From Propionibacterium ruminifibrarum (lineage in GTDB: Bacteria > Actinomycetota > Actinomycetes > Propionibacteriales > Propionibacteriaceae): DNA of 32,000 nucleotides. Every line of letters begins with the position of its first letter. Position 1 is the stretch's first letter. The position numbers and the translations under genes were made by a program. This document shows positions 96 to 24,697 of the stretch, one piece after another. Below the pieces are notes generated by a model. It did not search any database. It saw only the letters and a program-made list of their open reading frames with translations, and was not told the origin of the DNA. The stretch lies in contig NZ_OMOH01000003.1 in assembly GCF_900289195.1 (NCBI RefSeq), positions 120,001 to 152,000 on the forward strand, read 5' to 3'.

Positions 96-136
96 GGCGG
101 CCCCTGGTATTCCTCGTGGCAATCAGTGCCAGTTTA

Positions 137-1582: not shown

Positions 1583-1590
1583 TAGGTATG

Positions 1591-1630: not shown

Positions 1631-1655
1631 GTTTCTGGTGTTGCTCGTAGAACTG

Positions 1656-6295: not shown

Positions 6296-6805
6296 TCAGG
6301 CGACGCCGATCCTGTGCAGCCACGCGGTGACCGCCTTGGCGTTGGCGGCCGCTTCGAGGCGGGTCCCCGGCTTCCAGTCGCCGGTGTCGTCGAGGGCGGC
6401 GAGCCGGGTCGCGCTGCTGCCGACCGGTGAGGAGTACGAGGTGCAGAACGGCACGACGGTCTTGCCCGAGAAGTCGTTCTGCCGGACGAAGTCGTCGAGC
6501 ACCCAGGCGGCCTCGCCCCACCAGACGGGGTAGCCGACGAGGACGGTGCGGTAGTCGGCGAAGCCGTCGGGGGTGGTGCTCACCAGCTCCACGTGACGCT
6601 TGCCCGGATCGTCGTGCTCCCTGGAGACCCTGCTGCGGGGGTCGTTGTAGTTCAGGTCCGCCTCGCTGTAGGGGTCGGCGGGGGTGAGGACGAAGGTGTC
6701 GGCGCCGAGCGTCTTGGCGACGGTCTCGGCGACCCGGCCGGTGTGCCCGTGAGCCGAGTAGTACGCGACGAGGACCGAGGAGCCGGATGCGTTCGGAGTG
6801 CTCAT
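6296..6805 (-). CDS. Flavodoxin-family protein (cytoplasmic, short-chain flavodoxin-like fold)
   Basis: Track ORF trimmed to the ATG at 6805 (GGAAGG 8 nt upstream). Reads MSTPNASGSSVLVAYYSAHGHTGRVAE...LVGYPVWWGEAAWVLDDF...GKTVVPFCTS. Pattern recalled for the flavodoxin_4-type family. Paralogous to 14246..14926. Confidence 0.78.
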   Translation of the reverse strand: MSTPNASGSSVLVAYYSAHGHTGRVAETVAKTLGADTFVLTPADPYSEADLNYNDPRSRVSREHDDPGKRHVELVSTTPDGFADYRTVLVGYPVWWGEAAWVLDDFVRQNDFSGKTVVPFCTSYSSPVGSSATRLAALDDTGDWKPGTRLEAAANAKAVTAWLHRIGVA

Positions 6806-7062
6806 GTCATGCCTTCCTGATGGGTGCGCGCGGTCGACGACGCCATGTCTGGTGGTCGTCACCTGGATGGGGTCTGACGTGGATGCTGTGGGCGTGGCCG
6901 GGGACGTGTCGAAGTGCCCAGTCGCCTGGCTGCAGCAGATGCCTGCCTCGGCATTGCTGCCGGCATCGCGGTGACCGCAGGGCAGTTTACCCCCGTCGCC
7001 GTGCGGATCGTGGTCCTGAACCCGACTGCCGGGCACCGGTCAGGGACGGTTCGCCCCGGACG

Positions 7063-7138: not shown

Positions 7139-8617
7139 TCAGACCGTCGCCGTCTCGTCCGATGCCGGCTTCAGGCCGAGCCTTGCCCGCTCGTGGCGGG
7201 CGAACGGGCCGATCTCGGACTCACCGGCACGGCTGTCGGTCAGCAGGGTGAGGTCACGTCCGGCGACCTCGGGCATCGCGATGGCGGCCGACAGCGAGCA
7301 CAGGGAGAAGAAGGCGAGCATGACCGCGATCGGGACCCACGAGCCGGTGGTCGCGGCGACCCAGGCGGAGGCGATGACCGGGCCGGCGCCGGTGCCGATG
7401 ATGGCGGCGAGCTCCTTGGCCAGGGCGAGCTGGGTGTAGCGGTGCCTGGCCCCGAAGATCTCGGACATGGTCAGGTTCTCCAGCGACGCCAGGGCAAGCA
7501 CCGATGCCTGGTGCATGATGATGTAGCCGGCGAACACGGCGGGCACGGTCTTGCCGGACAGGATGAACATCATCGGGAACGCCAGGATGATGGACAGGGA
7601 CGCCATGATGATGTACATCGTCTTGCGCCCGAAGATGTCGCTCAGCAAGCCGATGATCGGGACCGTCGCGAAACCCACGAGCGAGGACACGATGACGACG
7701 TTGGTGCCGACGGACCGGTTCATGAGCAGTACCGCGGTGATGTAGCTCACGAGGTAGGTCTGGATCATCCCCGAGTTGCCGGCCTGACCGAGGCGCAGGA
7801 AGAAGGCGGTGACGAAGGCGCGGCCCTTCTTCTTGTCCGGGGCCAGTACCTCGTCGGCCTTGCCCGCGTTGACGATCTCACGCAGCTCGGACCGGGAGAC
7901 GGCGACGCCGTCCTTGACGTCGGCCCTGGCCTCGAAGACCGGGGACTCCTTGAGGGAGCGCCTGATCCACACGGCGAAGAAGAGGATGACGACCGACCCG
8001 AGGAAGGGGACGCGCCAGCCCCAGGACAGGAGCGTCTCCTCCGACATGGCGGCCACGAGGATGCCCCAGACGGCCGAGGCCAGCAGGGTGCCGGAGTTGG
8101 TGCCCAGCGCGACGAGCGAGCCGATGAGGCCCCGGCGGTGCCTCGGGGCGTACTCGGTGAGCATGACGGAGGAGCCGGCGATCTCGGCTCCGGCGCCGAA
8201 GCCCTGGAGGAGCCTCAGAACGACGAGCAGGATCGGGGCGACGATCCCGACCTGGTCGTAGGTCGGCAGGACGCCGATGAGGGTCGTCGCGACACCCATG
8301 AGCGCGATGGTGTAGTAGAGCACCTTGGTCCGGCCGATGCGGTCGCCCAGCCGGCCGAAGAACCAGGCGCCGAGCGGGCGGCTGAGGTAGCCGACGCCGT
8401 ACGTGGCCATGGCGGCGACGACGGCCATGGCGGCGTCCTCGGTGGTGAAGAAGATCTGGTTGAACACGAGCGCCGCGGCCAGCGAGTACAGCTGGAAGTC
8501 CATGAACTCCAGGGCGGTGCCGAGCCAGCCGGAGACGGCGGCCCTGGCCAGATCCGAGGTGGTCCGTTCCACCACTGTGCCGCTGGAGGAGCGGACGGTG
8601 GTTATCTTCTTTGACAT
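7139..8617 (-). CDS. MFS transporter, metabolite:H+ symporter (MHS) type, probable sugar-acid importer
   Basis: 492 aa and about 12 TM. N-terminal region GWLGTALEFMDFQLYSLAAALVF...GYLSRPLGAWFFGRLGDRIGRTKVL matches the MHS family signature (ProP/KgtP/ShiA-like). Last gene of a co-directional three-gene set. Confidence 0.88.
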   Translation of the reverse strand: MSKKITTVRSSSGTVVERTTSDLARAAVSGWLGTALEFMDFQLYSLAAALVFNQIFFTTEDAAMAVVAAMATYGVGYLSRPLGAWFFGRLGDRIGRTKVLYYTIALMGVATTLIGVLPTYDQVGIVAPILLVVLRLLQGFGAGAEIAGSSVMLTEYAPRHRRGLIGSLVALGTNSGTLLASAVWGILVAAMSEETLLSWGWRVPFLGSVVILFFAVWIRRSLKESPVFEARADVKDGVAVSRSELREIVNAGKADEVLAPDKKKGRAFVTAFFLRLGQAGNSGMIQTYLVSYITAVLLMNRSVGTNVVIVSSLVGFATVPIIGLLSDIFGRKTMYIIMASLSIILAFPMMFILSGKTVPAVFAGYIIMHQASVLALASLENLTMSEIFGARHRYTQLALAKELAAIIGTGAGPVIASAWVAATTGSWVPIAVMLAFFSLCSLSAAIAMPEVAGRDLTLLTDSRAGESEIGPFARHERARLGLKPASDETATV

Positions 8618-11246: not shown

Positions 11247-12014
11247 ATGACACCGTCATTCGACATCTCGGGCAGGCTGGCCCTCGTCACCGGTTCGGCC
11301 AGGGGCCTGGGGAACGTGTACGCGCGGGGTCTCGCCGCGGCGGGCTGCGATGTCGTCGTCCATGGCCGTAACCCGGACGCGGTGGCCGAACAGGTCGATG
11401 ACATCGCGCGGACCTACCGGGTCAAGGCCCACCCATGCGTCGTCGACGTGGCGGACCGTGACCGCGTCGCCCAGGCCATCGGGGCCCTCATCGACGAGGT
11501 CGGTGCGCCCGACATCCTGGTCAACAACGCCGGTGTCCAGCGCAGGGCGCCGTTCCACGAGTTCCCCGTCGAACAGTGGGACGAGGTCATCGGCACCAAC
11601 CTGAGTGGCGTGTTCTACGTGTCACGGGCCGTCGCCCCGGCAATGGTGGAGCGGGGCTCCGGCAAGATCATCAACATCGGCTCCGTCGTCACCGTTCTCG
11701 CACGCCAGACGCTGCCGCCGTACACGGCCGCCAAGGGCGGCATCGCGATGCTCACGAAGGAGATGGCGGCCGATCTGACCAGGTACAACATCCAGGTCAA
11801 CGCCATCTCGCCCGGCTACTTCCGCACCGAGATGAACACGGCCCTCATCAACGACCCCGAGTTCGACGCCTGGGTGGTCCAGCGGACCCCGGCCCGACGG
11901 TGGGGCGAGCCGGAGGAACTGCTCGGAACCCTGGTGTATCTCGCCTCCCCGGCCTCGGACTTCGTCACCGGCCAGAACATCCTCGTCGACGGGGGCATGA
12001 CCTCGGTGCTGTGA
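11247..12014 (+). CDS. SDR-family oxidoreductase, gluconate 5-dehydrogenase / 5-keto-D-gluconate reductase (IdnO/KduD-like)
   Basis: 255 aa. TGSARGLG cofactor motif, NNAG, catalytic Ser...YTAAK (YxxxK), C-terminal VDGG. GGAGGGAAG RBS upstream. Divergent from the ManD operon. Confidence 0.88.
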   Translation: MTPSFDISGRLALVTGSARGLGNVYARGLAAAGCDVVVHGRNPDAVAEQVDDIARTYRVKAHPCVVDVADRDRVAQAIGALIDEVGAPDILVNNAGVQRRAPFHEFPVEQWDEVIGTNLSGVFYVSRAVAPAMVERGSGKIINIGSVVTVLARQTLPPYTAAKGGIAMLTKEMAADLTRYNIQVNAISPGYFRTEMNTALINDPEFDAWVVQRTPARRWGEPEELLGTLVYLASPASDFVTGQNILVDGGMTSVL

Positions 12015-12627
12015 GCCCCGGATGCCAGGCGCGCGGCCGGCGTCGAGCGCCCCGATCACGACCTGGATGAATCCCGCCGGCTCAATCTGCGGGCGGCCGA
12101 GCTGCTCGACATCGTCCAGGACGAGATCGTCGCCCAGGGCTCGGACGGGCGCTGATCCGGCGGGGTGCCGCCCGGCCCCGCCTCCAGGATGGCTGCGGAC
12201 CACCCGGCCTGCACTCGCGTGGCCTCGGCGGGTGCGCGCCGCCCGCCGGGCAGCCGGTGCCCGGCGTGTCCTCGACTCGTGCGGGGGCGTCGTCCATGGT
12301 GCGCATCCAGCGCGGCAGCGCCGCATCGACCGGGATTCTCGGGGGATTCACCAAGGGCGCAGGAAAGCCTCACTTAAATACGAGCATGTCCTTTTCCAGG
12401 CCGTGGTGGTCAAGCCCCCAGGGCCATTGTTCAATTATTCCAAGTGCATTCGAAAAATATTACGGACCGTTGTCGATCAATAATTATTAATTCATAAAAA
12501 ACCCTCTGACAAGGTGTAACAATGAGTTATTGGCGACAAGGTCAGCCTGTGCTGTCTTGCGGGCGAGTTGCGGAAGGGGAAGAGTTATAGATATCAGAAG
12601 TGACACCCGGAACATCTGAGAGGATGA

Positions 12628-12906
12628 ATGATCATGACTGCCATCGCCCCCGTCACAACCTGCGCCACCACCGCCTGCGCCTTCAACAATGGCGGCTGCA
12701 CCGCATTCGCCGTCACGGTCGGCAGCAAGCCTGTCTGCCAGACCCTGGCCGTTCTCGATGCCCGCGCCGGCCTCGCCGAGGCCAACGGCCAGGTTGGTGC
12801 CTGCCAGTGCATCGAGTGCGTCCACAACAAGGACCTCATGTGCACCGCCGAGAGCGTGAGCTTCGGCGCCGAGGGCGCCCCCTGCCTGAGCTACGAGGTC
12901 GCCTGA
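12628..12906 (+). CDS. DUF1540 domain protein (small Cys-rich, two repeats)
   Basis: 92 aa: CATTACAFNNGGCTAFAVTV...C and GACQCIECVHNKDLMCTAESVSF...C, the two-repeat Cys pattern recalled for DUF1540. GAGAGGA at 12618-12624 fits the ATG at 12634 better (9 nt spacing), so the true start may be 12634. Confidence 0.78.
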   Translation: MIMTAIAPVTTCATTACAFNNGGCTAFAVTVGSKPVCQTLAVLDARAGLAEANGQVGACQCIECVHNKDLMCTAESVSFGAEGAPCLSYEVA

Positions 12907-12948
12907 TCTGAGCGGTTTCACCGGGGATGCCCGGTGAGTGATCATTCC

Positions 12949-12986
12949 ATTGGGGCCCCTGCCGATCATTCGGCAGGGGCCCCAAT
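12949..12986. terminator. Strong bidirectional terminator hairpin (17-bp perfect stem, 4-nt loop)
   Basis: ATTGGGGCCCCTGCCGA tcat TCGGCAGGGGCCCCAAT, between the convergent genes ending at 12906 (+) and 13013 (-). A second 7-bp hairpin, CACCGGG gatg CCCGGTG, lies just upstream at about 12919-12936. Confidence 0.7.
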
Positions 12987-13012
12987 GCGGTGTGTGCGAG
13001 GCGGGATGAGAG

Positions 13013-13855
13013 TCAGCCGAGGGTCGGTGCCGTGCGGGAGGCCAGCTGCTGAAGGGCTGAGTCCAGTGCCGCCATGGAGTCGACGGGGGAGTCGAATGGG
13101 GCGAAGAAGGTACTCGTCTGGGTCGGCTCCACCGTCATGAGCGTCAGGCCGTAGCGGTCGACGTCGACGCAGTAGATGCGGTTCCAGGTGTGCGGGCACC
13201 CCGCGGTCACGGTGTGTCGCGAACAGATGCGGCCCGCGATGCGCTCGTCGTCGATGGCGTCGGCGATGTTCCACAGGGCGTCCTCGCCGAGGGCCATTGC
13301 TGCGTCGAAGGCCTCGAACTCGTCCTCGATGGTGGGGAAGGGCATGCTGGAACTGGTCTCCATCAGGGTGCCGAAGGCCATCGGGGTGACGCCCGTGGAA
13401 TCGTGCAGCAGCACGCGCTGGGTCCGGATGACGCCCAGCCGACCGTGCGGATGGGCGACGGTGGCGGCCACCCGGGGCGGCAGCTGGCCGTCGGCCAGCA
13501 GCTGCGCCGAGACCTGCAGGGGCATCCACTCGAGGGTGCCTAGCAGGTGCACGGCCGAGGAGATGATGTGTACGCCCGGCTCCTGCGAGGCCTTGGTGAC
13601 GTCGAGGCGAACGGCGATCGACTCGGTCAGCGGCATCTCGGCGACCTCGTCGCCCGGAGTGGGACAACAGGCCACGACGATGCGGCCGGATCTCGTCAGG
13701 CCGTGCGCGAGGAACTCAATACTGACCTGGGGGTCCTGGCGGTATGCGAGCAATGACCCGCAGCCGGAACCACAGAGCAACCGGTAGGCGATCGACTGGG
13801 TGCGTCCCACGAGTGCGTCGGTTGTCGCCGCACCCGCCTCCGGTACCAGGGACAT
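13013..13855 (-). CDS. Hypothetical protein, DUF2470-like (actinobacterial family ending in a ...DRYGL.L... motif)
   Basis: 280-aa ORF with high third-position GC. GGAAGGA 7 nt before the ATG at 13855. C-terminal VDVDRYGLTLMTVE and overall layout resemble DUF2470-type proteins as recalled. The family assignment is tentative. Confidence 0.7.
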   Translation of the reverse strand: MSLVPEAGAATTDALVGRTQSIAYRLLCGSGCGSLLAYRQDPQVSIEFLAHGLTRSGRIVVACCPTPGDEVAEMPLTESIAVRLDVTKASQEPGVHIISSAVHLLGTLEWMPLQVSAQLLADGQLPPRVAATVAHPHGRLGVIRTQRVLLHDSTGVTPMAFGTLMETSSSMPFPTIEDEFEAFDAAMALGEDALWNIADAIDDERIAGRICSRHTVTAGCPHTWNRIYCVDVDRYGLTLMTVEPTQTSTFFAPFDSPVDSMAALDSALQQLASRTAPTLG

Positions 13856-14245
13856 GTCGGGATCCTTCCGTCGGGAAGCGTCGCTCCTGTCATGGAACGC
13901 TTAGGCGAGCCTAATCTGTAGATCCCCGAATGGGAAGATCGAGTCTGCTCTTCGGACGGGAAATTCGCTCGAAAGCGGAACCGGGTCGCTGCTCGGCGGG
14001 CATGCGCGCCTGGTCGATCATGCATGAAACGCATGACTCAAGGCTTCGATGCGCATAGCGGAGAGCTTCCATGGCGGGCCGCTGATTTCATAATCATGCT
14101 TCATGACAGTAAGGGGCCGTCATGCGTTGCCAACAGGGGATTCGATACCACGCGGACGTCTGGCGTCCGTGCTCGTGAGCTGTCGAGGCCCGGCGCCGCG
14201 ACCTGTCAACCGGGCCATGAGCCCCCACCGAACAACAGAGGTTCC

Positions 14246-14926
14246 ATGAAACGCACAAGAATCATCACTCTCGTCGCCGTCCTCGCCGTCCTGGCCGCCG
14301 CGCTGCTCGGCTATGACCTGCTCCGTCGCGGATCCGATGCCGCTTCGCCTGCCCGGGGCCAGTCCGATAGCGGCGCCGCCGAGTCGGCGAACCCATCGGC
14401 CGCCGGATCGGACGCGGGCGACTCCAAGATCCTCATCGTCTACTTCTCCCGCACCGAGGGCGTCTACGACGGTCCGCTCGATGTCGGGCACACCAAGGTC
14501 GTGGCCGACTTCATCCAGGCCCGCACCGGCGCCGACGAATACGAGATCGTGCCCGCCACCGATTACCCGACCGACTACCAGAGCACCACCGAGATCGCCC
14601 AGGCCGAGCAGAACGAGGACGCCCGTCCGGCCATCGCCAACCCGCTGCCCGACGTCGCCGACTACGACACCGTCTTCATCGGGGCGCCGATCTGGTGGGG
14701 CGAGTACCCGATGATCGTGAGAACCTTCATGGACGGCGTCGACCTGAACGGGAAGACGCTCGTACCGTTCACGACCCACGAGGGCTCCGGTCTCGGGACG
14801 ACCCAGAGTCAGCTCGCCGCCCAGTATCCTGATGCGACCGTTCTTGACGGACTGGGCGTACGGGGCGGCGAGGCCGAGTCCAGCCGGCCCGACGTGGATG
14901 AGTGGCTCGAGGGGCTCGGGTTCTGA
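14246..14926 (+). CDS. Exported / membrane-anchored flavodoxin-family protein
   Basis: Track ORF trimmed to the ATG at 14246 (AGAGG 5 nt upstream). MKRTRIITLVAVLAVLAAALLG is a signal or anchor sequence. It is followed by a ~40-aa Ser/Ala/Gly/Asp linker and then a flavodoxin core, KILIVYFSRTEG...VFIGAPIWWGEYPMIV...GKTLVPFTTHEGSG. Confidence 0.8.
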   Translation: MKRTRIITLVAVLAVLAAALLGYDLLRRGSDAASPARGQSDSGAAESANPSAAGSDAGDSKILIVYFSRTEGVYDGPLDVGHTKVVADFIQARTGADEYEIVPATDYPTDYQSTTEIAQAEQNEDARPAIANPLPDVADYDTVFIGAPIWWGEYPMIVRTFMDGVDLNGKTLVPFTTHEGSGLGTTQSQLAAQYPDATVLDGLGVRGGEAESSRPDVDEWLEGLGF

Positions 14927-14947
14927 ACCGGTCGGGTTTCACGCAGC

Positions 14948-15628
14948 ATGTTCAGGCATCACCCCATTGAGTGGTACCTGGCATGGGCCGTCGTCCTCGT
15001 CGCGGCGCCCATGCCATTGGTCTACACGCTGAACATCTCGATGGTCGACGCCCCGCCCCGGCTACTCGTCCACGACCTCGGGGCGGCCGCCTACACGTGG
15101 TGGCTGGTGGCCGTTGCGTTGTCGAGCCGGCCGCGCTGGATCGACCGGATGATCGGGCTGCCGGCCGTCTACACGATGCACGCCGTCCTCGGTGTGCTCG
15201 CCCTGGGGGCCGCCACCGCGCACGTGCTCGCCTCGTTCACGATGCACCCGGTCATCCGCTGGACCGGACGGATCGCGTGGTACCTGGCGATCTTCGGTGT
15301 GCTGTACGCGGGCCTGTTCATGAGCGGCCTGCTCGTCGACCGGCTGCCCCGAGCCGCCAGGCTGAAGGCCAAGGCCGAACGCGTCCTGGCGCATCGGGTC
15401 TCGGTATGGGTCCACCGGCTCAACCTCGTCGCGATCATTCTCATTCTGGTGCACGTCCATGTCATCCCGAGGGTGGCGCGGGCCACCGGCTTCGTCGTCG
15501 CCATGGACATCTACACCTTCGTGGCCTTGGCCGCCTACGTCTGGGGGCGATTCGCCGCTCCGGCGCTCCGGCCGAACCGTGGTGTCGTCATGCGAACGAG
15601 ACGCTCGGGCGGCATACCCGTAGGCTGA
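14948..15628 (+). CDS. Ferric-reductase-like (NOX/FRE/YedZ-type) transmembrane heme domain, N-terminal part of a frameshifted gene
   Basis: 226 aa and about 6 TM. Two His pairs with NOX-type spacing: H-x13-H in YTMHAVLGVLALGAATAHVL and H-x12-H in VHRLNLVAIILILVHV. Ends at a TGA at 15626-15628, while the FAD/NAD domain continues in the -1 frame. Confidence 0.8.
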   Translation: MFRHHPIEWYLAWAVVLVAAPMPLVYTLNISMVDAPPRLLVHDLGAAAYTWWLVAVALSSRPRWIDRMIGLPAVYTMHAVLGVLALGAATAHVLASFTMHPVIRWTGRIAWYLAIFGVLYAGLFMSGLLVDRLPRAARLKAKAERVLAHRVSVWVHRLNLVAIILILVHVHVIPRVARATGFVVAMDIYTFVALAAYVWGRFAAPALRPNRGVVMRTRRSGGIPVG

Positions 15629-15660
15629 GCATCGAACTCGACGGCAGGACGCCGGCCCCC

Positions 15661-16251
15661 ATGGCCGGTGACTACTACTTCATATCGGTGCACGGCGTGC
15701 CGGGAGTGACGACCGAGTCGCACCCGTTCTCCGTCACCTTCGCGCCCTCGGGGGAGCGCGGCAGGACGGTGGACTTCACGATCCGGGAGGCCGGTGACTT
15801 CACCGGAACCGTCGAGATGATCCCCGTGGGCGCTGATGTCGTCCTGGAGGGCCCCTTCGGCCGTTTCGGACCGGTCATCGAGGCCACGAACCCGTCACGA
15901 CGACTGGTGCTGGTGGGTATGGGTACGGGGATCGCCCCGCTGATCGGTATCGCCCAGCAGTACGCCGGGGTGCGGCCGGTCACCGTTCTTCGCACTGTCC
16001 GCTCACCGGGCGATCTGCACGATGATGCCCTGCTGGCGAGGCTCGCCGAGGAGCATGAGTCATTCGTCTACGAGCGCCGCGTGCACCGCTGGGACGCCGC
16101 CCAGGTGACTGCATGCATCGCTCCCGAGGACCTGAGGACCGCACTGTTCATCGTGGTGGGTCCGGCGCCGGCGGTACTCGGCGCGCGCCGCATGCTGCGC
16201 GGCATTGGTGTTCCCTCGCGGCACATCGAGGACGAACGGCTCACGATGTGA
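15661..16251 (+). CDS. FAD/NAD(P)-binding ferredoxin-reductase-type domain, C-terminal part of the same frameshifted gene
   Basis: Frame of track ORF 14971..16251. HPFSVTF (flavin-binding HPF[ST]) and GMGTGIAP (nucleotide-binding). The first ATG in frame is 15661, but domain-like sequence (HANETLGRHTRRLSIELDG...) already starts near 15589 with no start codon. Confidence 0.7.
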   Translation: MAGDYYFISVHGVPGVTTESHPFSVTFAPSGERGRTVDFTIREAGDFTGTVEMIPVGADVVLEGPFGRFGPVIEATNPSRRLVLVGMGTGIAPLIGIAQQYAGVRPVTVLRTVRSPGDLHDDALLARLAEEHESFVYERRVHRWDAAQVTACIAPEDLRTALFIVVGPAPAVLGARRMLRGIGVPSRHIEDERLTM

Positions 16252-16587
16252 ATCCGCCGCCGGGCCCTGCGGTACTCGGCGCGCGACGCCGTGGCCCGGC
16301 GGGCGGGCCGTGGCTCACCGTGGCGGACCGGGCCGAGGGGGCTGGACGGAAGGGACGGTGGCGAGTCCACCGGTTCGCCCGCGACTTCGATGAACGGCAT
16401 GGGCGTTCCTGCCGGCTGATCCTGGTCGGGATGGGCGGGCATGCGGTACGCTCGCGCGGGTCCGGGGCAGGAGGGGCCGTGGTGCGACTCACGGCATCAT
16501 CTTGTTGCCCCGCCGTTCCGCTCGCGCGTTGACCGCTTGGTTCTCCTGATCGACCGAGCCGCAGCGCGATCACTCGAAGGAGACTCG

Positions 16588-17571
16588 ATGAGAGCCCTGC
16601 TGCTCGATGCCCCAGGAGGCCCGGAGACGCTGCGCGTCGGCGAGGCCGACGAACCTGTTCCCGGCCCCGGCCGGGTGCTGGTCCGCGTGCACGCCTGCGG
16701 CCTCAACCCGGTCGACTGGAAGGTCGCCTCGGGCGGCAACCCGGACTGGTCCTGGCCGCACATCCTCGGGCTGGACGTCGCCGGGACCGTCGAGGCCCTC
16801 GGCGAGGGCGTGAGCGGCGTGGCACCAGGCCAGCGGGTCGCTCTGCACCACGACCTGCGCCGTCCCGGCGGCATGGCCGAACTGGTCGTCGTCGACCCCG
16901 TGGCGCTCGCCCCCATCCCCGATGCCGTGAGCTTCCAGGACGCCGCCGCCCTGCCGTGCGCGGGCATGACCGGTTACCAGGCCCTCACGCGTCGGCTGCA
17001 CCTGCACGCCGGGCAGAGCCTTCTCGTCACCGGCATCGGCGGTGTCGGCGGCTACGCCGTCCAGGTAGCCGCCCGCCTCGGCGTCCACGTCATCGTCACC
17101 GCCTCCGCCGCCAAGCACGCCGAGGCCCTTGCCCTCGGCGCCGAGCACGTCATCGACTACGCGGGCGGCGACGTCGTCGCCCGCGTGCGCGAGCTGACCG
17201 ACGGACGCGGGGTCGACGCGGTGCTCGACACCGTCTCGGCCGCCTCGGCCACGGCGAACCTGGGTGCGCTGGCCTTCAATGGCGGTCTCGCCTTCACCAA
17301 CGGCCGTCCCGATCTGACGACCGTGCCCGAGTTCACCACCGCCCCGTCGGTGCACGAGATCTCGCTCGGCGCCGCGTACTCGTCCGGTGGCTCGGAGGCC
17401 CGCGCCGACCTGTCGGCGATGCTCGGTGAGCTCATGGCGCTCGTCGCCGAGGGCTCGCTCGGCGCGCGTATCGCCGACACGCTGAGCCTCGGCGAGGTGC
17501 CGCAGGGGTATGCCCGCATCGAGAACGGGCACATGGCCGGCAAGCTGGTCATGGTCGATCCCTGGGCCTGA
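16588..17571 (+). CDS. Zinc-type MDR oxidoreductase, NADPH:quinone oxidoreductase-like
   Basis: Track ORF trimmed to the ATG at 16588 (GAAGGAGA RBS). MRALLLDAPGGPETLRVGEADEPVPGPGRVLVRVHACGLNPVDWK and the GIGGVGGYAVQVA Rossmann motif are typical of quinone oxidoreductase (Qor) family proteins. Confidence 0.87.
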   Translation: MRALLLDAPGGPETLRVGEADEPVPGPGRVLVRVHACGLNPVDWKVASGGNPDWSWPHILGLDVAGTVEALGEGVSGVAPGQRVALHHDLRRPGGMAELVVVDPVALAPIPDAVSFQDAAALPCAGMTGYQALTRRLHLHAGQSLLVTGIGGVGGYAVQVAARLGVHVIVTASAAKHAEALALGAEHVIDYAGGDVVARVRELTDGRGVDAVLDTVSAASATANLGALAFNGGLAFTNGRPDLTTVPEFTTAPSVHEISLGAAYSSGGSEARADLSAMLGELMALVAEGSLGARIADTLSLGEVPQGYARIENGHMAGKLVMVDPWA

Positions 17572-17608
17572 CGGCAGGCGCGGCGGCCCTGCCGGGCAGC
17601 GCCGTCAG
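17568..17608. terminator. GC-rich nested inverted repeats between convergent genes
   Basis: CTGACGGC (17568-17575) pairs with GCCGTCAG (17601-17608). Inner CGGCAGG (17572-17578) pairs with CCTGCCG (17588-17594). Overlaps both stop codons. Function inferred from position only. Confidence 0.35.
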
Positions 17609-19971
17609 AGGTGTTTGACCAGCAGGTACACGAGCAGGGCCATGCCGCCGAACGGGGTCAGGGCCGAGGCCCAGGCCGCCAGGTCGAGGGCGCTGCGGTG
17701 GGGTTGCTGGGCCTGTGGTGTGGGCGAGGACGTCGGGTCCTGAGAGGACGACGCCGAAGGGTTGTTGCCCGGGACCTGTGAGGGGCCCTGACCGGTGCTC
17801 GGGGCCGCCGTGGTCGGGTTCGCCAGATCATGAGGGCCCGGCGCCGCGTCCGAGTGCTGGGCCTCACCGGCGTCGGTGGCCGTGGTCGGCTGCGTGTCCT
17901 GTTCGGCGGGCGTCTCGGCCCGGTCGGCGGAGTCCTGCTCGGCCGGGGCCGCGTCGTCGGGCGATGCCTGCTCGGTGGCCGGTGCCGCGGACTGGTCCTT
18001 CGCCGAGGTGCCGGGCTGGTCGCCCTGCCATGCGGCGTTCACCAGGGCGCCGCGGTCCGGGCTCTGGGCACTCACGCCGAGCAGGTCGGCGACGGCGGCG
18101 GGCAGATCAGTGCCACTGCCCCTGGCCGGCGAGTCCTCCGACAGGCGCAGATCCGAACTCGCCCACGCCGTGACCTGCTCGGACTCGTGAACGAACAGCG
18201 GGTTCTCAGCGGCCGTGCCGTGCAGGTCGAGCCCATGGGCCTCCTTGCCCAGCGTCGTCACCAGCGGGCTCGCGGTGAAGTCGGACAGGTTCTCGGCGTT
18301 GACGTTCTTGTCGGGCCCCGTCCACAGCACCGTGGTGTTGGGCACATCGCTGCTCTTGTCGCGGTAGTAGACGTTGTGGTCGATACCGGCGACCATCTGG
18401 TTGGCCCAGACCGGGTTGCCCTGGTTGTCGTCGGCGTGACCGACGAACTGCACCGTCGGCGAGTAGTGCCACGGGTCGTCGGGGCCGGAGAGGGTCTCGG
18501 AGGAGAAGATGTTGTTGTAGAGCGTCGTATCGGTAGTGTCCCAGCTCAGGCCGTGCTCGATGCTCCAGGACTCCTCCTGCAGGCAGTTGCCGTCGCCGGC
18601 CCGCTTGTTGCAGCCGCTGGTGCGGCCGTCCTCGTAGGCGTCGATCGAGGTGCGGGCGTGCGAGATCGTGTTGTTCCACACCTGCGTGTGGTCCGAGCCC
18701 GCGATCACGATGGCGCTGCCGGCGCCATTGACGATGTTCGACGCGATGGTCGTTGCCGAGGAGACCTCGGCGATGATCGCCTTTTTCGTGTTGACGAAGT
18801 AGTTCGCGGCGATCGTGGAGTTGATCATGCCCTCGTCGAGCCACAGCGCCGGCTGTCCGCCCGTGCTTCCGGGCTGGGAGCGGTCGGGCGCCCCCGCGTA
18901 GTCGAAGGTGTTGAACGAGAAGGTGACGTTCTCGGAGTGCGTCGCCTTGAGGTCACCGATCGTGCAGTAGGCCCCGCAGTCCGCCAGCGACATCTCGCCG
19001 CGGTTGTTGTCGTACCAGCTGTTGTTCGTGATGGTCACGCCGTGCGACGTGTTGATGCCCAGGCCCCCGGCCGCGTTGCGCGCGAAGGTGTTGCCGCTGA
19101 CGGTGGCACTGGTGGCATCGCTGAGGTCGAGCGCGGTACCCATGCCCGAGTGGCTGAACGTCGCGTTCCGGTAGGTGTTGTCCGTGCCGTGCATCATGAC
19201 CATCTCGGCCCCGGTGGAGGTGCCGATCTCGGGATCGGCGTAGTCCCAGCGTTGGACGGGGGAGTACTTGGTGACATCGAGGCCGTCGACGACGATGCCG
19301 TCACCGCTGAGGGTCAGTGCCCGAGAGTGCTGGGTGATCTCGACGGTGTGCCCGGTGGGATCGGAACCGAGCACGTAGCTGACGCCTCGGTGCGGGGCCG
19401 CGTTGAAACCGCCCCAGCTGTTGCCCTCCTGCTTGAGGGTGACCGGCTGCGGGTCGTCGACGAAGAAGGTGCCCGGTTTCAGCTCGTCCCTGCTGAGCAC
19501 CTGGGTCTGCTCGACGCCGTCGATGAAGACCTGCTCGGGATGGGCCGCTGCCCCCAGGCGCGCCGGGTCGGGATCGGTGGTGCACACGTCGCAGAAACGC
19601 ACCTTGTCGTGCGGGGTGGACCAGGTGCCGTCCCCGGACGCCGTCCAGTCGGTGACGACATCGGCCCCGTTGAGCGTCGCCTTGCCCGCTCCGTCGGCGG
19701 AGACGATCGTCACCTGCTTCCTCACGACGAGTTCGCCCTCCCGGTAGTCGCCGTCGGCCAACTCGATGGTGTCGCCGTCCCCGGCCGCCTCGAGCGCTGC
19801 GCCGAGGGTGCGCAGGGGCGCCTGCGCGCTGCCCGCGTTCGAGTCGTCGCCGGAGACCGACGAGACATGAATGGTCGTGGTGCCACCAGGGGCGGCGGTA
19901 GCGGCGGGCACGTGGAGGCCGAGTAGCAGTAATGGGAGGGCGCACAGGGTGGTGGTTCGCAGGCGACGCAT
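17605..19971 (-). CDS. Secreted right-handed parallel beta-helix repeat protein with Pro/Ser/Thr/Ala-rich stalk and C-terminal hydrophobic anchor
   Basis: 788 aa. Signal peptide MRRLRTTTLCALPLLLLGLHVPAATA-AP. Beta-helix-type repeats (SGNTFARNAAGGLGINTSHGVTITNNSWYDNN, NNTISHARTSIDAY). About 170 aa of low-complexity acidic/PT-rich C-terminal region. Final ALTPFGGMALLVYLLVKHL. Confidence 0.85.
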   Translation of the reverse strand: MRRLRTTTLCALPLLLLGLHVPAATAAPGGTTTIHVSSVSGDDSNAGSAQAPLRTLGAALEAAGDGDTIELADGDYREGELVVRKQVTIVSADGAGKATLNGADVVTDWTASGDGTWSTPHDKVRFCDVCTTDPDPARLGAAAHPEQVFIDGVEQTQVLSRDELKPGTFFVDDPQPVTLKQEGNSWGGFNAAPHRGVSYVLGSDPTGHTVEITQHSRALTLSGDGIVVDGLDVTKYSPVQRWDYADPEIGTSTGAEMVMMHGTDNTYRNATFSHSGMGTALDLSDATSATVSGNTFARNAAGGLGINTSHGVTITNNSWYDNNRGEMSLADCGAYCTIGDLKATHSENVTFSFNTFDYAGAPDRSQPGSTGGQPALWLDEGMINSTIAANYFVNTKKAIIAEVSSATTIASNIVNGAGSAIVIAGSDHTQVWNNTISHARTSIDAYEDGRTSGCNKRAGDGNCLQEESWSIEHGLSWDTTDTTLYNNIFSSETLSGPDDPWHYSPTVQFVGHADDNQGNPVWANQMVAGIDHNVYYRDKSSDVPNTTVLWTGPDKNVNAENLSDFTASPLVTTLGKEAHGLDLHGTAAENPLFVHESEQVTAWASSDLRLSEDSPARGSGTDLPAAVADLLGVSAQSPDRGALVNAAWQGDQPGTSAKDQSAAPATEQASPDDAAPAEQDSADRAETPAEQDTQPTTATDAGEAQHSDAAPGPHDLANPTTAAPSTGQGPSQVPGNNPSASSSQDPTSSPTPQAQQPHRSALDLAAWASALTPFGGMALLVYLLVKHL

Positions 19972-22748: not shown

Positions 22749-23435
22749 ATGATCGACGATCCTCACGCCAACAGGACCGCAGGGGCCGACCGGGAGCCGG
22801 GCGCGGTACGCGAGCGCGTCCTGTCGGCCCTGGTCCGGGCGGGCGGTCCGCTGTCCATCGACGACATCGCCGCCAGCATGGACGTGCACCCCAACACGGT
22901 GCGTTTCCACCTCAACCACCTCACCGACGAGGGGATCGTCGAGGCCACCAAGGCCACCGCCTCCGGGCGGGGCCGCCCCCGCATGCTCTACACGGCAACC
23001 GACAAGGCCTTCAGCGCCGGACCCCAGAACGACCGGCTGCTCGCCGACGTCTTCATGCACCACTTCGCCAGCCGGCACACCGGGGCGCTCGGCGCGGCCG
23101 CCGAACGCGCCGGGCGCGAGTGGGCCGAACAGGCGCTCGACGAACGGCCCGTCGTCCCCGGGGGCGACGACGTGGCCCGCCTGGTGGGGCTGCTCGACGC
23201 GTGGGGCTTCTCCCCGGTGCTCGTCGAGGGTTCCGGCGACGAGCGGACCATCGAGTTGTGCGGCTGCCCGTTCATCCACGAGGTCGAGCAGCTCCCGGGT
23301 GTCGTCTGCCCGGTGCACCGGGGCATCGCCGCCGGGGTCCTCGCGCGACTCGGCGGCACGTGGCGGGTGGCCGAGCTGACGCCGCACAGCTCGCCCGGCA
23401 GGTGCTCGCTCACCTGCTGCCTGGCCGATGGCTGA
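22749..23435 (+). CDS. Winged-helix (ArsR/MarR-like) transcriptional regulator with Cys/His-rich C-terminal sensor-like domain
   Basis: 228 aa. wHTH segment LSIDDIAASMDVHPNTVRFHLNHLTDEGIVEA. C-terminal ELCGCPFIHE...VVCPVHRGIAAG...GRCSLTCCLADG. Starts 4 nt after the DUF2249 stop. Confidence 0.82.
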   Translation: MIDDPHANRTAGADREPGAVRERVLSALVRAGGPLSIDDIAASMDVHPNTVRFHLNHLTDEGIVEATKATASGRGRPRMLYTATDKAFSAGPQNDRLLADVFMHHFASRHTGALGAAAERAGREWAEQALDERPVVPGGDDVARLVGLLDAWGFSPVLVEGSGDERTIELCGCPFIHEVEQLPGVVCPVHRGIAAGVLARLGGTWRVAELTPHSSPGRCSLTCCLADG

Positions 23436-23479
23436 GGCGCCCCCCGAACCCGTCCACCCACGACCCACGAAAGGGCACC

Positions 23480-24697
23480 ATGCCGCAGGCCCCGTCCGCA
23501 CCAGCAGAGCCGAGGCAGGGGCGAGCCCCTGCCGGCCAGCTGCGCCGCGTCCTGTTCCTCATCCCGTGCGGGCTGTCCATGCTCATGGGCCTGGACGCCG
23601 CGCTGGCCCTGCTCGACCTGCCCGCCCCGCTCAGCGGGGAGCGCTTCACGAGCGGCCACGGCATGCTCATGGTCATCGGTTTCGTCGGCGCCCTCGTGAG
23701 CCTGGAGCGTTCGGTCTCGATCAAGCGCTGGTGGGCCTATGCCGCGCCCGTCGCCATGGCCCTCGGCTCGCTGCTCACCCTCGTCGCGCCGCTGCCGGTG
23801 CGGGCCGGCAGAGCCGTCATGGTTGCCGGCTGCCTCGCCATGTGCGCGAACTACGTCGTGCTGTGGCGCCGCAACCGGGAACCACTCGTCGCCGTCCAGA
23901 TCGGCGGCGGCATCTCGGCCCTGTGCGCGACGATCGTGTGGCTCGGCGGCGTGCCGATTCCCAGCTTCATCGCCCTGCTCATCTCGTTCCTGGCGCTGAC
24001 GGTCATCGCCGAACGCCTCGACCTGTCGCGCATCGGCCAGCTCGCGTGGACGCCCCGGCGCCGCCGGCTGCACGAGGACGCGCTCGTGCTCCTCGCCGTG
24101 CTCGCCGTCCTGGCCGGGGCGGCCACGGTGACGTGGCCCGCCGTCGCCCTGCCCTGCTACGGGCTCGTGCTCATCGCCCTGTCGGTGCAGTCGGCCTCGG
24201 GCGACGTGGCGCGCCGGGGCATCACGGTGCCCGGCCCCAACCGGTTCATGTCGGTCATGATCCTGGCCGGCTACGGCTGGCTCGTCGTCACGGGCCTGAT
24301 GCTGCTGCGTCCGGCCCTGTCGGGGCTGCGGTACGACGCGACCCTGCACGCCGTCTTCCTCGGCTTCATCATGTCGATGGTCGCCGCCCACGCCTCGACG
24401 ATCCTGCCCGGCCTGCTGGGCATCCGGATGCGATTCGTCTCCGGGTTCTGGGGCGTCGGCCTGGTGCTGCACCTCAGCCTGGTCGTGCGGATCGCCGCCG
24501 ACCTGGCCGACTCGCAGTCCTGGCGCCAGGTGGGCGGCCTGGGCAACATCGCCGCGATGCTCGGCCTCGTCGCCGTGGCCATCTGGTCGGCGACGACGAA
24601 GGACGCCGCCGAGGCCGAACAGCGGCCCCCTCGCCCCGCCGCGCAGGACGGCCCCGGCATCCCGCTCACCACGACGAGCCCGAGGACGAACCCATGA
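23480..24697 (+). CDS. Polytopic membrane protein (about 10-12 TM), possibly NnrS-like
   Basis: Track ORF 22454..24697 trimmed to the first ATG after the regulator (23480). 405 aa of mostly hydrophobic helices with intramembrane His residues (SGHGMLMV, TLHAVFLGFIMSMVAAHAS). The stop overlaps the next start (ATGA). The NnrS assignment is a weak recollection. Confidence 0.72.
   Translation: MPQAPSAPAEPRQGRAPAGQLRRVLFLIPCGLSMLMGLDAALALLDLPAPLSGERFTSGHGMLMVIGFVGALVSLERSVSIKRWWAYAAPVAMALGSLLTLVAPLPVRAGRAVMVAGCLAMCANYVVLWRRNREPLVAVQIGGGISALCATIVWLGGVPIPSFIALLISFLALTVIAERLDLSRIGQLAWTPRRRRLHEDALVLLAVLAVLAGAATVTWPAVALPCYGLVLIALSVQSASGDVARRGITVPGPNRFMSVMILAGYGWLVVTGLMLLRPALSGLRYDATLHAVFLGFIMSMVAAHASTILPGLLGIRMRFVSGFWGVGLVLHLSLVVRIAADLADSQSWRQVGGLGNIAAMLGLVAVAIWSATTKDAAEAEQRPPRPAAQDGPGIPLTTTSPRTNP

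What the first reader, a model, noticed from the sequence alone, without database searches (positions are those of the whole stretch)
14246..16251. Exported flavodoxin adjacent to a NOX-like transmembrane oxidoreductase: possible outward electron-transfer module
The flavodoxin-family protein at 14246 has an N-terminal signal or anchor sequence (MKRTR + 17 hydrophobic residues) and a disordered linker. This predicts that the flavin domain sits outside the membrane. Twenty-two nt downstream begins a gene with the complete NOX/FRE architecture. It has a 6-TM domain with two bis-His pairs (H-x13-H and H-x12-H, the spacing of the two stacked hemes in NOX-family enzymes). It also has an HPFS flavin site and a GxGxGxxP nucleotide site. 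Such enzymes move electrons from cytoplasmic NAD(P)H across the membrane. An extracytoplasmic flavodoxin immediately upstream is an obvious candidate acceptor. I do not know this pairing as a described system. No flavin transferase (ApbE-like) is present in the window to explain cofactor loading outside the cell.
Basis: inference. Interest (0 to 1): 0.65.

Follow-up and report, generated by a model that had tools for sequence, protein, structure and literature searches.

The report
Exported flavodoxin paired with NOX-like reductase
An outward-facing, membrane-anchored flavodoxin gene lies next to a NOX-type transmembrane NAD(P)H reductase gene. The pairing is conserved in about 50 actinobacterial and lactic-acid-bacterial genomes and probably carries electrons out of the cell, but in this genome a one-base deletion breaks the reductase gene.

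Summary
The described features are real, with one correction. The reductase is not an intact gene here. One base is missing at 15591-15593, so the 6-TM di-heme domain (14948-15628) and the FAD/NAD domain (to 16251) lie in different frames. Three relatives at 97-99% identity carry an intact 428-aa gene.

- **Reductase:** the repaired protein is a divergent homologue of the Streptococcus pneumoniae NADPH oxidase SpNOX (profile E=3e-29; AF2 model TM 0.73-0.78). All four heme histidines, HPFS and GMGxGxxP are invariant.
- **Flavodoxin:** it is a Flavodoxin_4 with a signal-anchor helix and a disordered linker.
- **Synteny:** 51 of 55 genomes with this reductase clade have the flavodoxin directly adjacent. 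In many Actinobacteria it carries a Tat-lipoprotein signal, so it is exported folded and needs no ApbE.
- **Sister clade:** the sister reductase clade is instead paired with ApbE plus a signal-anchored FMN_bind protein, the published "MsrQ-like" flavinylation system.

The flavodoxin therefore most likely replaces the flavinylated protein as extracytoplasmic acceptor: NAD(P)H, FAD, two hemes, FMN outside. I found no paper describing this pairing. Electron transfer, the terminal acceptor and activity in this strain remain inferred. I rate it a new variant of a known kind, of moderate interest.

The parts
14246..14926 (+). Gene for a membrane-anchored, exported Flavodoxin_4 protein (226 aa)
   Evidence: Pfam PF12682 E=3.7e-29. 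AF2 pLDDT 87 overall and above 95 in the domain. Foldseek top hits are the Bacteroides Flavodoxin_4 structures 4ici, 4j8p and 3klb (FMN-bound). There are 1034 homologues, and the closest all share this architecture.
14246..14326 (+). N-terminal signal anchor (MKRTR plus hydrophobic helix, residues 1-27)
   Evidence: AF2 helix at residues 3-27. The N-flank charge is +4 against +1 after the helix. The N-flank is the more positive side in 47 of 50 orthologues.
14327..14422 (+). Low-complexity disordered linker (residues 28-59, rich in S/A/G/D)
   Evidence: pLDDT below 50 for residues 32-57. S/T/A/Q-rich linkers of 30-45 aa occur in all close homologues.
14423..14923 (+). Flavodoxin_4 FMN-binding domain, with a 10-residue insertion (RTEGVYDGPLDV region) between strand beta1 and the phosphate loop
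   Evidence: Alignment to 3KLB shows the 10-aa insertion. Invariant residues are G81, T83, W150, W151, G180 and G182. No [S/T]G[AGS][S/T] motif is present.
14948..15591 (+). Reductase gene, 5' part: six-helix di-heme transmembrane domain. Heme-ligand histidine codons are H78 at 15179-15181, H92 at 15221-15223, H156 at 15413-15415 and H169 at 15452-15454.
   Evidence: ORF list. The histidines are invariant. The AF2 model of the intact orthologue P0001 has six TM helices, pLDDT 92.5. Foldseek matches SpNOX 8qt6 with TM 0.73/0.78.
15591..15593 (+). Site of a one-base deletion (frameshift) that separates the TM domain from the dehydrogenase domain
   Evidence: blastn alignment to L001. L082 has GTCGTCATGGCGAAC where the window has GTCGTCATGCGAAC.
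15593..16251 (+). Reductase gene, 3' part in the other frame: FAD-binding domain (HPFS at 15721-15732) and NAD(P)H-binding domain (GMGTGIAP at 15916-15939), ending in the conserved C-terminus DERLTM
   Evidence: Frame translations. The family profile matches the SpNOX dehydrogenase domain at E=1.3e-23 and full-length SpNOX at E=3e-29. Weak FAD_binding_8 match.

Best explanation
The two genes form a two-component outward electron-transfer module.

**Proposed path.** The downstream gene encodes a divergent SpNOX-like flavocytochrome b. Its cytoplasmic C-terminal domain takes a hydride from NAD(P)H onto FAD. Single electrons then cross the membrane through an inner heme (H78/H156) and an outer heme (H92/H169). 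The upstream gene encodes a Flavodoxin_4 tethered to the outer face of the membrane by a signal anchor and a flexible linker. Its non-covalently bound FMN receives the electrons from the exposed outer heme. It passes them to a still unknown extracellular acceptor, with ferric iron or chelates, free flavins or quinones, or O2 as candidates.

**Relation to the sister clade.** The flavodoxin takes the place that an ApbE-flavinylated FMN_bind protein occupies in the sister clade of the same reductase, so no ApbE is needed. In Actinobacteria with Tat-lipoprotein signals the holo-protein is exported folded. In the Sec-type versions, as here, FMN would have to be acquired outside the cell.

**This genome.** The reductase carries a one-base deletion, so the module is either inactivated or mis-sequenced.

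**What is shown and what is inferred.** Shown: gene architecture, homology and fold, export signals, synteny, and clade-specific partner exchange. Inferred: cofactor content, direct heme-to-FMN transfer, direction of flow, and the terminal acceptor.
For: 1. **NOX membership.** The family profile hits the SpNOX structures 8qq7, 8qt6 and 8qta at E=3e-29. The AF2 model of the intact orthologue has pLDDT 92.5, and Foldseek ranks SpNOX first over the full length, TM 0.73/0.78. The four histidines, HPFS and GMGxGxxP are invariant.
2. **Outside location of the flavodoxin.** It has a signal anchor plus a disordered linker. Of the 50 flavodoxins scored (49 reductase-adjacent orthologues plus the window's own), 23 have Tat plus lipobox signals (TRRxFLAL...AGCS), 6 more have Tat-like RRK motifs, and the rest have Sec-type anchors. 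The N-flank is more positive in 47 of 50.
3. **Synteny.** 51 of 55 genome loci with this reductase clade have the flavodoxin directly adjacent. The hosts include Actinomyces, Bifidobacteriaceae, Streptomyces, Actinoplanes, Micromonospora, Curtobacterium, Lactobacillaceae, Oenococcus and Pediococcus. The closest metagenomic flavodoxin homologues have the reductase 19-113 nt away.
4. **Partner exchange.** An NJ tree of 75 reductases splits cleanly. The clade with the flavodoxin partner holds 48 loci plus the window. The clade with the operon FMN_bind-ApbE-reductase shows that partner in 23 of 24 loci. The two partner types are never mixed. The second arrangement matches the published MsrQ-like flavinylated system (PMC8238504).
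5. **No flavinylation.** No conserved [S/T]G[AGS][S/T] motif occurs in 51 adjacent flavodoxins. The closest structures bind FMN non-covalently.
Against: - No experiment or complex model links the two proteins, and a multimer prediction could not be run.
- In this window the reductase is frameshifted. A relative (P0002/L084) has an in-frame deletion of about 48 aa that removes the TM3 histidine pair. This suggests the module is dispensable in this lineage.
- Limosilactobacillus reuteri has the reductase without an adjacent flavodoxin.
- Most exported Flavodoxin_4 lipoproteins in metagenomes have no NOX-like gene within 4 kb, so an exported flavodoxin does not in general need this reductase.
- SpNOX orthologues themselves stand alone, and SpNOX reduces O2, cytochrome c and iron directly in vitro.
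- Many host taxa are heme auxotrophs (general knowledge). In them the reductase would need exogenous heme.
- For Sec-exported versions, how FMN is loaded outside the cell is unexplained.
Confidence: 0.6

Rival explanations
1. The reductase is a self-sufficient ferric reductase or oxidase that reduces small acceptors (Fe(III), O2, flavins) directly at its outer heme. The exported flavodoxin would then be a co-regulated but mechanistically separate protein, for example a flavin-binding or flavin-scavenging protein, or a reductase fed from another source.
For: SpNOX reduces O2, cytochrome c and Fe(III) directly in vitro, and its orthologues have no adjacent partner. L. reuteri has the reductase without an adjacent flavodoxin. 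About 70 exported Flavodoxin_4 lipoproteins in metagenomes lack a NOX-like neighbour.
Against: Adjacency is tight, usually on the same strand with short gaps, in 51 of 55 genomes across two phyla. The partner type switches cleanly with the reductase clade, to FMN_bind plus ApbE in the other clade. That pattern is hard to explain without a direct functional coupling.
Confidence: 0.2
2. In this particular genome the locus is a decaying remnant. The reductase is a true pseudogene and the pair has no present function. This reading does not exclude the family-level mechanism.
For: There is a one-base deletion relative to three near-identical contigs. A related contig has an in-frame deletion that removes the TM3 heme ligands.
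Against: It is a single-base indel in a GC-rich run and could be an assembly or sequencing error. There are no other lesions, and the downstream frame is open all the way to the conserved stop. High GC3 (0.88) was measured on the upstream TM-domain ORF only (14927-15628). The flavodoxin gene is intact.
Confidence: 0.35
3. The flavodoxin domain is cytoplasmic (N-out anchor) and acts on the cytoplasmic side, for example as an alternative electron donor to the heme domain.
For: None specific. Classical flavodoxins are cytoplasmic, and the window contains a second, signal-less Flavodoxin_4 at 6296-6808.
Against: The positive-inside rule favours an N-in orientation in 47 of 50 orthologues. 23 orthologues have Tat plus lipobox signals. 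The linker composition is like that of the exported FMN_bind partner in the sister clade. The reductase already has its own FAD/NAD domain.
Confidence: 0.03

Closest known systems
SpNOX, the Streptococcus pneumoniae NADPH oxidase homologue (PDB 8QQ7, 8QT6; PMC11564096, PMC5676040)
   Same: It has six TM helices with bis-His pairs on TM3 and TM5 (x13 and x12 spacing) and a C-terminal FAD/NAD(P)H domain of about 400-430 aa. The full-length fold matches at TM 0.73-0.78 and the profile E-value is 3e-29.
   Different: Identity is only about 19-25%, and the TM domain misses Pfam PF01794. SpNOX orthologues have no adjacent exported flavoprotein, whereas this clade almost always does. The physiological acceptor of SpNOX is unknown.
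'MsrQ-like' flavinylation-associated electron-transfer systems (Meheust et al. 2021, eLife, PMC8238504)
   Same: [quoted passage not shown] The sister clade of this reductase has exactly that operon, FMN_bind-ApbE-reductase.
   Different: Here the partner is a Flavodoxin_4, not an FMN_bind domain. There is no ApbE in the cluster or the window and no flavinylation motif. FMN is presumably bound non-covalently.
ApbE-flavinylated extracytosolic Flavodoxin_4 proteins associated with DUF4405 cytochromes (mSystems 2024, PMC11334425)
   Same: It is an exported Flavodoxin_4 with an insertion between strand beta1 and helix alpha1, proposed to work in extracytosolic electron transfer with a membrane cytochrome b.
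   Different: Those proteins carry an [S/T]GA[S/T] site in the insertion, are flavinylated by a neighbouring ApbE, and pair with DUF4405. This one has a 10-aa insertion without the motif, no ApbE, and pairs with a NOX-like reductase. That paper generalises that extracytosolic flavodoxins are flavinylated, and this clade appears to be an exception.
E. coli MsrQ-MsrP (with Fre)
   Same: A heme-b FRD-family membrane protein hands electrons to a dedicated extracytoplasmic partner protein (cited).
   Different: MsrQ has no fused dehydrogenase domain, and its partner is a molybdoenzyme rather than a flavodoxin.

Membership tests
NOX / ferric-reductase-domain (FRD) flavocytochromes (SpNOX-like) | Six transmembrane helices followed by a cytoplasmic FAD/NAD(P)H dehydrogenase domain | tested here: met
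   The AF2 model of the intact orthologue P0001 has helices at 2-25, 30-52, 57-89, 95-119, 143-166 and 174-197, then a beta-barrel plus Rossmann domain. pLDDT is 92.5.
NOX / ferric-reductase-domain (FRD) flavocytochromes (SpNOX-like) | Two bis-histidine pairs on TM3 (H-x13-H) and TM5 (H-x12-H) for two stacked hemes | tested here: met
   H78/H92 and H156/H169 are invariant in 21 and 46 sequences.
NOX / ferric-reductase-domain (FRD) flavocytochromes (SpNOX-like) | HPFS-type FAD motif and GxGxxP NAD(P)H motif | tested here: met
   HPFS and GMGxGxxP are invariant. Their window coordinates are 15721-15732 and 15916-15939.
NOX / ferric-reductase-domain (FRD) flavocytochromes (SpNOX-like) | Significant sequence or structure similarity to a solved NOX | tested here: met
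   hmmsearch against PDB gives SpNOX at E=3e-29. Foldseek gives 8qt6 at E=2e-19, TM 0.73/0.78 over 426 columns.
NOX / ferric-reductase-domain (FRD) flavocytochromes (SpNOX-like) | Match to Pfam Ferric_reduct (PF01794) above the gathering score | tested here: not met
   There is no PF01794 hit for the window TM domain or for P0001. A sister-clade member reaches only E=0.007. This is a divergent subfamily, recognised only by profile or structure.
NOX / ferric-reductase-domain (FRD) flavocytochromes (SpNOX-like) | Intact reading frame in this window | tested here: not met
   A one-base deletion lies at 15591-15593.
NOX / ferric-reductase-domain (FRD) flavocytochromes (SpNOX-like) | Binds two hemes b and FAD, and oxidises NAD(P)H | not testable with these tools
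   This needs purified protein.
Flavodoxin_4 (PF12682) | Pfam match above the gathering score and a flavodoxin-like fold with conserved FMN-site residues | tested here: met
   101.6 bits against a cut-off of 24. Foldseek hits 4ici, 4j8p and 3klb with TMt 0.77-0.84. The invariant G-x-T loop, WW and GSG loop are present.
Flavodoxin_4 (PF12682) | Binds FMN | not testable with these tools
   Inferred from 3KLB and 3EDO, which are FMN complexes.
MsrQ-like flavinylation-associated system (Meheust 2021) | apbE gene in the cluster | tested here: not met
   No ApbE is found in the window (best E=0.69; Pfam). None is found in any of the 51 flavodoxin-type loci.
MsrQ-like flavinylation-associated system (Meheust 2021) | FMN_bind (PF04205) or another partner carrying an [S/T]GA[S/T] flavinylation site | tested here: not met
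   The partner is a Flavodoxin_4. No conserved motif occurs in the 51 orthologues. In the sister clade, an FMN_bind partner carries an SGAT site (L067 sequence) and another is confirmed as PF04205 by Pfam (L069).
ApbE-flavinylated Flavodoxin_4 (mSystems 2024) | Insertion between beta1 and alpha1 that contains the flavinylated Ser/Thr in an [S/T]GA[S/T]-like motif, with apbE nearby | tested here: not met
   A 10-aa insertion is present at that position relative to 3KLB. It lacks the motif, and there is no ApbE.

The most novel reading that the evidence does not exclude
A widespread two-gene module that needs neither ApbE nor quinones, found in Actinobacteria and Lactobacillales. A NOX-family flavocytochrome would hand cytoplasmic NAD(P)H electrons to a dedicated, non-covalently FMN-loaded flavodoxin on the cell surface. 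That flavodoxin is Tat-exported as a holo-lipoprotein in Actinobacteria and Sec-anchored in lactic acid bacteria. This would be a natural protein acceptor for a bacterial NOX homologue with a flavin that is not covalently attached. It would also be an exception to the view that extracytosolic flavodoxins need covalent flavinylation to keep their cofactor.
Probability: 0.45. Interest if true: 0.7.

Novelty: new variant of a known kind. Interest (0 to 1): 0.55.

Why it matters
- **Open question on bacterial NOX.** Bacterial NOX homologues such as SpNOX are used as structural models for human NOX enzymes, yet their physiological acceptor is unknown. The SpNOX authors themselves suggest an unidentified protein acceptor (PMC11564096). 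This clade offers a concrete, genetically linked candidate that could be tested with two recombinant proteins.
- **More routes out of the cell.** It adds to the known ways Gram-positive bacteria send electrons outward, namely the Listeria flavin-based EET system and the ApbE-dependent systems. The new route needs neither quinones nor flavinylation.
- **Cofactor retention.** It raises the question of how a non-covalent flavoprotein keeps its cofactor outside the cell. The use of Tat in Actinobacteria and the beta1-alpha1 insertion are leads.
- **Hosts.** They include gut, oral and food bacteria (Lactobacillus johnsonii, Companilactobacillus, Bifidobacteriaceae, Actinomyces) and Streptomyces. 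Roles in iron acquisition, redox balance or reactive-oxygen production would have practical relevance.

Tried and rejected
- **Multimer model.** A fused or paired alignment of reductase plus flavodoxin was prepared for a pseudo-multimer AF2 run. No complex model exists.
- **Third conserved component.** All-vs-all clustering of ORFs in 80 loci found nothing consistently linked in the flavodoxin clade beyond the pair. Zn-ADH, SDR, XRE and LacI regulators, and cupin are lineage-specific.
- **Upstream 280-aa gene (13013-13855, minus strand).** It gives only a sub-threshold DUF2470 hit and no PDB or NCBIfam match. No heme-related role could be supported.
- **Regulatory RNA and signals.** There is no Rfam hit, including no FMN riboswitch, in 12000-17000. 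Promoter and terminator scans were uninformative.
- **Iron regulation.** One IdeR/DtxR-like box lies in the window's intergenic region. No such box is found upstream of the operon in any of 80 other loci, so I did not use it as evidence of function.
- **SpNOX context.** I tested the idea that SpNOX itself has the same partner. Its orthologues in S. oralis and Lysinibacillus stand alone.
- **Literature.** Searches for extracellular, secreted, periplasmic, membrane-anchored or lipoprotein flavodoxin, for Flavodoxin_4/PF12682, and for SpNOX plus flavodoxin found no description of this pairing.
Full report
**1. What is in the window**

The ORF at 14246-14926 (+) encodes a 226-aa protein that matches Pfam Flavodoxin_4 (PF12682, E=3.7e-29, residues 80-222). 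It begins MKRTR followed by 17 hydrophobic residues. An AlphaFold2 model built on 50 homologues gives three parts:
- a helix at residues 3-27
- a disordered segment at 32-57 (pLDDT<50)
- a compact domain at 60-226 (pLDDT 95-99)

Foldseek's best matches are the Bacteroides Flavodoxin_4 structures 4ICI, 4J8P and 3KLB, the last of which is an FMN complex. After 21 intervening bases, an ATG at 14948 opens a 226-aa ORF with six hydrophobic helices, ending at 15628. The FAD/NAD-type sequence (HPFS, GMGTGIAP) continues to 16251 in a different frame.

**2. The frameshift**

A search with the frame-repaired protein found P0001 (428 aa, 98% identical). I compared the window with four related contigs.

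| Contig | Source | DNA identity to window | State of the reductase gene |
|---|---|---|---|
| L001 | carries P0001 | 97% | intact 428-aa gene; the only indel inside the gene is one extra base at 15591/15592 |
| L082 | ENA | 98.8% | intact 428-aa gene directly after the flavodoxin gene; reads GTCGTCATGGCGAAC where the window reads GTCGTCATGCGAAC |
| L083 | JGI | 99.2% | open gene directly after the flavodoxin gene, running off the contig end (385 aa called) |
| L084 | encodes P0002 | about 90-92% | in-frame deletion of about 48 aa that removes the TM3 histidine pair |

The lesion in the window is specific to this sequence. It is either a real inactivating mutation or a sequencing error, and I cannot tell which. 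The gene shows signs of being dispensable in this lineage.

**3. What the reductase is**

- **Sequence motifs.** Across 21 and 46 family members the following are invariant: H78 and H92 (x13 spacing), H156 and H169 (x12 spacing), HPFS, GMGxGxxP and a C-terminal DERLTM.
- **Pfam.** Pfam does not recognise the TM domain, and the FAD domain matches only weakly.
- **Profile search.** A family profile hits the solved structures of Streptococcus pneumoniae NOX (SpNOX; 8QQ7, 8QT6, 8QTA) at E=3e-29.
- **Structure.** An AF2 model of P0001 (pLDDT 92.5, pTM 0.86) superposes on SpNOX over its whole length (TM 0.73/0.78). Human NOX2, NOX5 and DUOX1 appear further down the list.
- **Topology.** The distribution of Arg and Lys in the loops fits the NOX topology, with the N-terminus and the dehydrogenase domain in the cytoplasm. 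I read this directly from the sequence.

The protein is a divergent member of the NOX/FRD flavocytochrome family, with about 19-25% identity to SpNOX.

**4. Is the flavodoxin outside the cell?**

- **Close homologues.** All share the same design of basic N-terminus, about 20 hydrophobic residues, a 30-45-aa S/T/A/Q-rich linker and the domain.
- **Signals on reductase-adjacent orthologues.** Among the 50 flavodoxins scored (49 reductase-adjacent orthologues plus the window's own), 23 have a textbook Tat-lipoprotein signal (for example MTSTTRRGFLALAAAVAGAGVAGCS) and 6 more have a Tat-like RRK motif. A few others start MxRRKMLGL. The rest have Sec-type anchors. The N-flank is the more positive side in 47 of 50.
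- **Meaning of the signals.** Tat plus lipobox signals mean export of a folded protein that is then lipid-anchored on the outer face. This is established knowledge of Tat and Lgt/Lsp pathways.
- **Internal contrast.** The window holds a second Flavodoxin_4 (6296-6808, minus strand) with no signal and no insertion.

I regard the extracytoplasmic location as well supported, although it is not experimentally shown.

**5. Synteny**

One scan of 185,579 species genomes with the reductase profile returned 80 loci.
- **Closer clade.** 55 loci carry the closer reductase clade (at least about 38% identity). Of these, 51 have a Flavodoxin_4 gene directly adjacent. It is mostly upstream on the same strand. 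In many Streptomyces it is directly downstream, and in a few genomes it is convergent.
- **Hosts.** They span Actinomycetota (Actinomyces, Arachnia, Alloscardovia, Aeriscardovia, Bifidobacterium bombi, Streptomyces, Actinoplanes, Micromonospora, Curtobacterium, Pseudarthrobacter, Promicromonospora, Nocardia, Kocuria) and Lactobacillales (Lactobacillus, Companilactobacillus, Agrilactobacillus, Furfurilactobacillus, Pediococcus, Oenococcus).
- **Exceptions.** The four exceptions are all Limosilactobacillus reuteri.
- **Reverse survey.** A metagenome scan with the flavodoxin profile shows that only the closest homologues (at least about 50% identity) have the reductase adjacent, at 19-113 nt. About 70 more distant exported Flavodoxin_4 proteins, mostly lipoproteins from gut metagenomes, have no NOX-like gene, ApbE or FMN_bind within 4 kb.

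Exported Flavodoxin_4 is therefore a broad phenomenon. The NOX pairing defines one subfamily of it.

**6. The sister clade gives the key to the mechanism**

The other 25 loci carry a reductase clade at 30-35% identity. They come from Streptococcus suis and relatives, Levilactobacillus, Lentilactobacillus and several Bifidobacterium species. None has a flavodoxin nearby. Instead, 23 have two conserved genes immediately upstream:
- a signal-anchored protein with an S/T linker and an FMN_bind domain (PF04205; one example carries an SGAT site)
- an ApbE flavin transferase (PF02424)

Both assignments were confirmed by Pfam. An NJ tree of 75 reductases splits cleanly into these two clades, and partner type follows the clade without mixing.

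The FMN_bind-ApbE-reductase arrangement corresponds to the 'MsrQ-like' flavinylation-associated systems of Meheust et al. 2021. They proposed it to move electrons from NAD(P)H to an extracytosolic flavinylated protein, possibly for iron reduction (PMC8238504). The simplest reading is that the exported flavodoxin fills the same role in the first clade.

**7. Cofactor loading**

- **No flavinylation site.** The flavodoxin has a 10-residue insertion between strand beta1 and the phosphate loop relative to 3KLB. That is the place where ApbE-flavinylated Flavodoxin_4 proteins carry their [S/T]GA[S/T] site (PMC11334425). Neither the window protein nor 48 of 51 orthologues has any [S/T]G[AGS][S/T] motif, and the three sporadic matches are not at a conserved position.
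- **No ApbE.** None is present in the window or in any flavodoxin-type locus.
- **Consequence.** With Tat export in Actinobacteria, non-covalent FMN bound before export is the obvious solution. For the Sec-type versions, including this one, FMN would have to be acquired outside the cell, and this remains unexplained.
- **Relation to published view.** The 2024 paper states that extracytosolic flavodoxins show signs of flavinylation, in contrast to cytosolic ones. This clade, and the many lipoprotein Flavodoxin_4s seen, look like exceptions.

**8. Proposed mechanism**

The proposed path is cytoplasmic NAD(P)H, then FAD, then the inner heme (H78/H156), then the outer heme (H92/H169), then the FMN of the tethered flavodoxin outside, then an unknown acceptor.
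- **Shown:** the architecture and the pairing.
- **Inferred:** cofactor occupancy, direct heme-to-FMN transfer and the terminal acceptor.
- **Thermodynamics.** One-electron transfer from low-potential NOX-type hemes to the flavodoxin quinone/semiquinone couple is plausible, from general knowledge of these cofactors.
- **Heme supply.** Many hosts are heme auxotrophs (general knowledge of lactic acid bacteria and bifidobacteria), so activity may depend on external heme.
- **Terminal acceptor.** No third conserved gene points to one.

**9. Comparison with what is known, and novelty**

- **SpNOX.** The SpNOX papers state that its physiological acceptor is unknown, that its outer heme is unusually exposed, and that a protein acceptor may exist (PMC11564096; PMC5676040). 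SpNOX orthologues themselves have no adjacent flavoprotein, so the present clade is not simply SpNOX.
- **Known designs.** The general design of an FRD-type reductase plus an extracytosolic flavoprotein is known (Meheust 2021). Exported Flavodoxin_4 as an electron carrier is known in its flavinylated, DUF4405-linked form (2024).
- **This pairing.** I found no paper describing a NOX-like reductase paired with a non-flavinylated exported flavodoxin. The searched library does not include most subscription journals.

I rate this a new variant of a known kind.

**10. Verdict**

- Confidence that the two genes are functionally coupled: about 0.85.
- Confidence that the flavodoxin is the direct extracytoplasmic acceptor: about 0.6.
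- Interest: 0.55.

Noticed in passing
window 6296-6808 (-), next to 7139-8617 (-): A second Flavodoxin_4 gene (Pfam E=2.8e-33). Its likely start is MSTPNASGSS... It has no signal or anchor and no beta1-alpha1 insertion, so it is a cytoplasmic-type paralogue. It lies beside an MFS transporter gene.
   Followed up: partly
window 13901-13919 (intergenic 13856-14245): The only match in the 32-kb window within 5 mismatches of the IdeR/DtxR box consensus (ACAGATTAGGCTCGCCTAA, containing the palindrome TTAGGC..GCCTAA). About 0.03 matches are expected in shuffles. It lies about 46 bp upstream of the divergent 280-aa gene and about 327 bp upstream of the flavodoxin ATG. No such box is found upstream of the operon in 80 other loci, so it probably concerns the divergent gene.
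   Followed up: partly
window 13013-13855 (-) and 12628-12906 (+): A 280-aa protein (only a sub-threshold DUF2470 hit, no PDB or NCBIfam match) and a 92-aa Cys-rich DUF1540 protein. Both are conserved just upstream of the flavodoxin-reductase pair in all four close relatives (L082-L084). Their function is unknown.
   Followed up: partly
window 1-2000: G+C is only 52-58%, against about 70% in the rest of the window. ORFs 314-1582 and 1607-2653 have no Pfam hit. This may be foreign or non-coding DNA next to an SbcC-like gene (1658-5014, minus strand).
   Followed up: no
window 23428-27357 (+): A very large ORF (1309 aa) with cupredoxin and multicopper-oxidase domains near its C-terminus, preceded by an ArsR/GntR-type HTH regulator (22749-23435). 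It may be another extracytoplasmic redox protein. It was not examined.
   Followed up: no
window 17605-19971 (-): A 788-aa NosD/beta-helix/DUF1565 protein with a signal peptide, a long low-complexity C-terminal region and a terminal hydrophobic anchor. It looks like a surface protein and is conserved downstream in L001.
   Followed up: no
L084 (Logan ERR11413715), gene 3464-4624 = P0002: In a relative with about 90-92% DNA identity (its flavodoxin P0055 is 90% identical), the reductase has an in-frame deletion of about 48 aa that removes TM2-TM3 and both TM3 heme-ligand histidines. This is a second, independent lesion in this lineage.
   Followed up: partly
L093-L165 (metagenome loci): Exported Flavodoxin_4 proteins with lipoprotein or Tat signals are abundant in gut and other metagenomes. 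A signal-less Flavodoxin_4 gene often lies nearby. They have no NOX-like reductase, ApbE or FMN_bind within 4 kb and no flavinylation motif in the beta1-alpha1 region. Their electron source is unknown.
   Followed up: partly
L012, L013, L028, L050 (Limosilactobacillus reuteri): These loci carry the flavodoxin-clade reductase without an adjacent flavodoxin. A distant Flavodoxin_4-like gene lies about 2.3-5.6 kb downstream of the reductase. They are the only exceptions to the synteny.
   Followed up: no
L011, L016, L017 (Lactobacillus agrestimuris, L. johnsonii): Up to four Flavodoxin_4-like genes cluster within 13 kb around the reductase. This suggests local expansion of the family in the Lactobacillus acidophilus group.
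   Followed up: no
L166, L167 (S. oralis, Lysinibacillus): True SpNOX orthologues stand alone, with no exported flavoprotein next to them. Their neighbours are a metallo-beta-lactamase-fold protein and a nitroreductase, respectively.
   Followed up: partly
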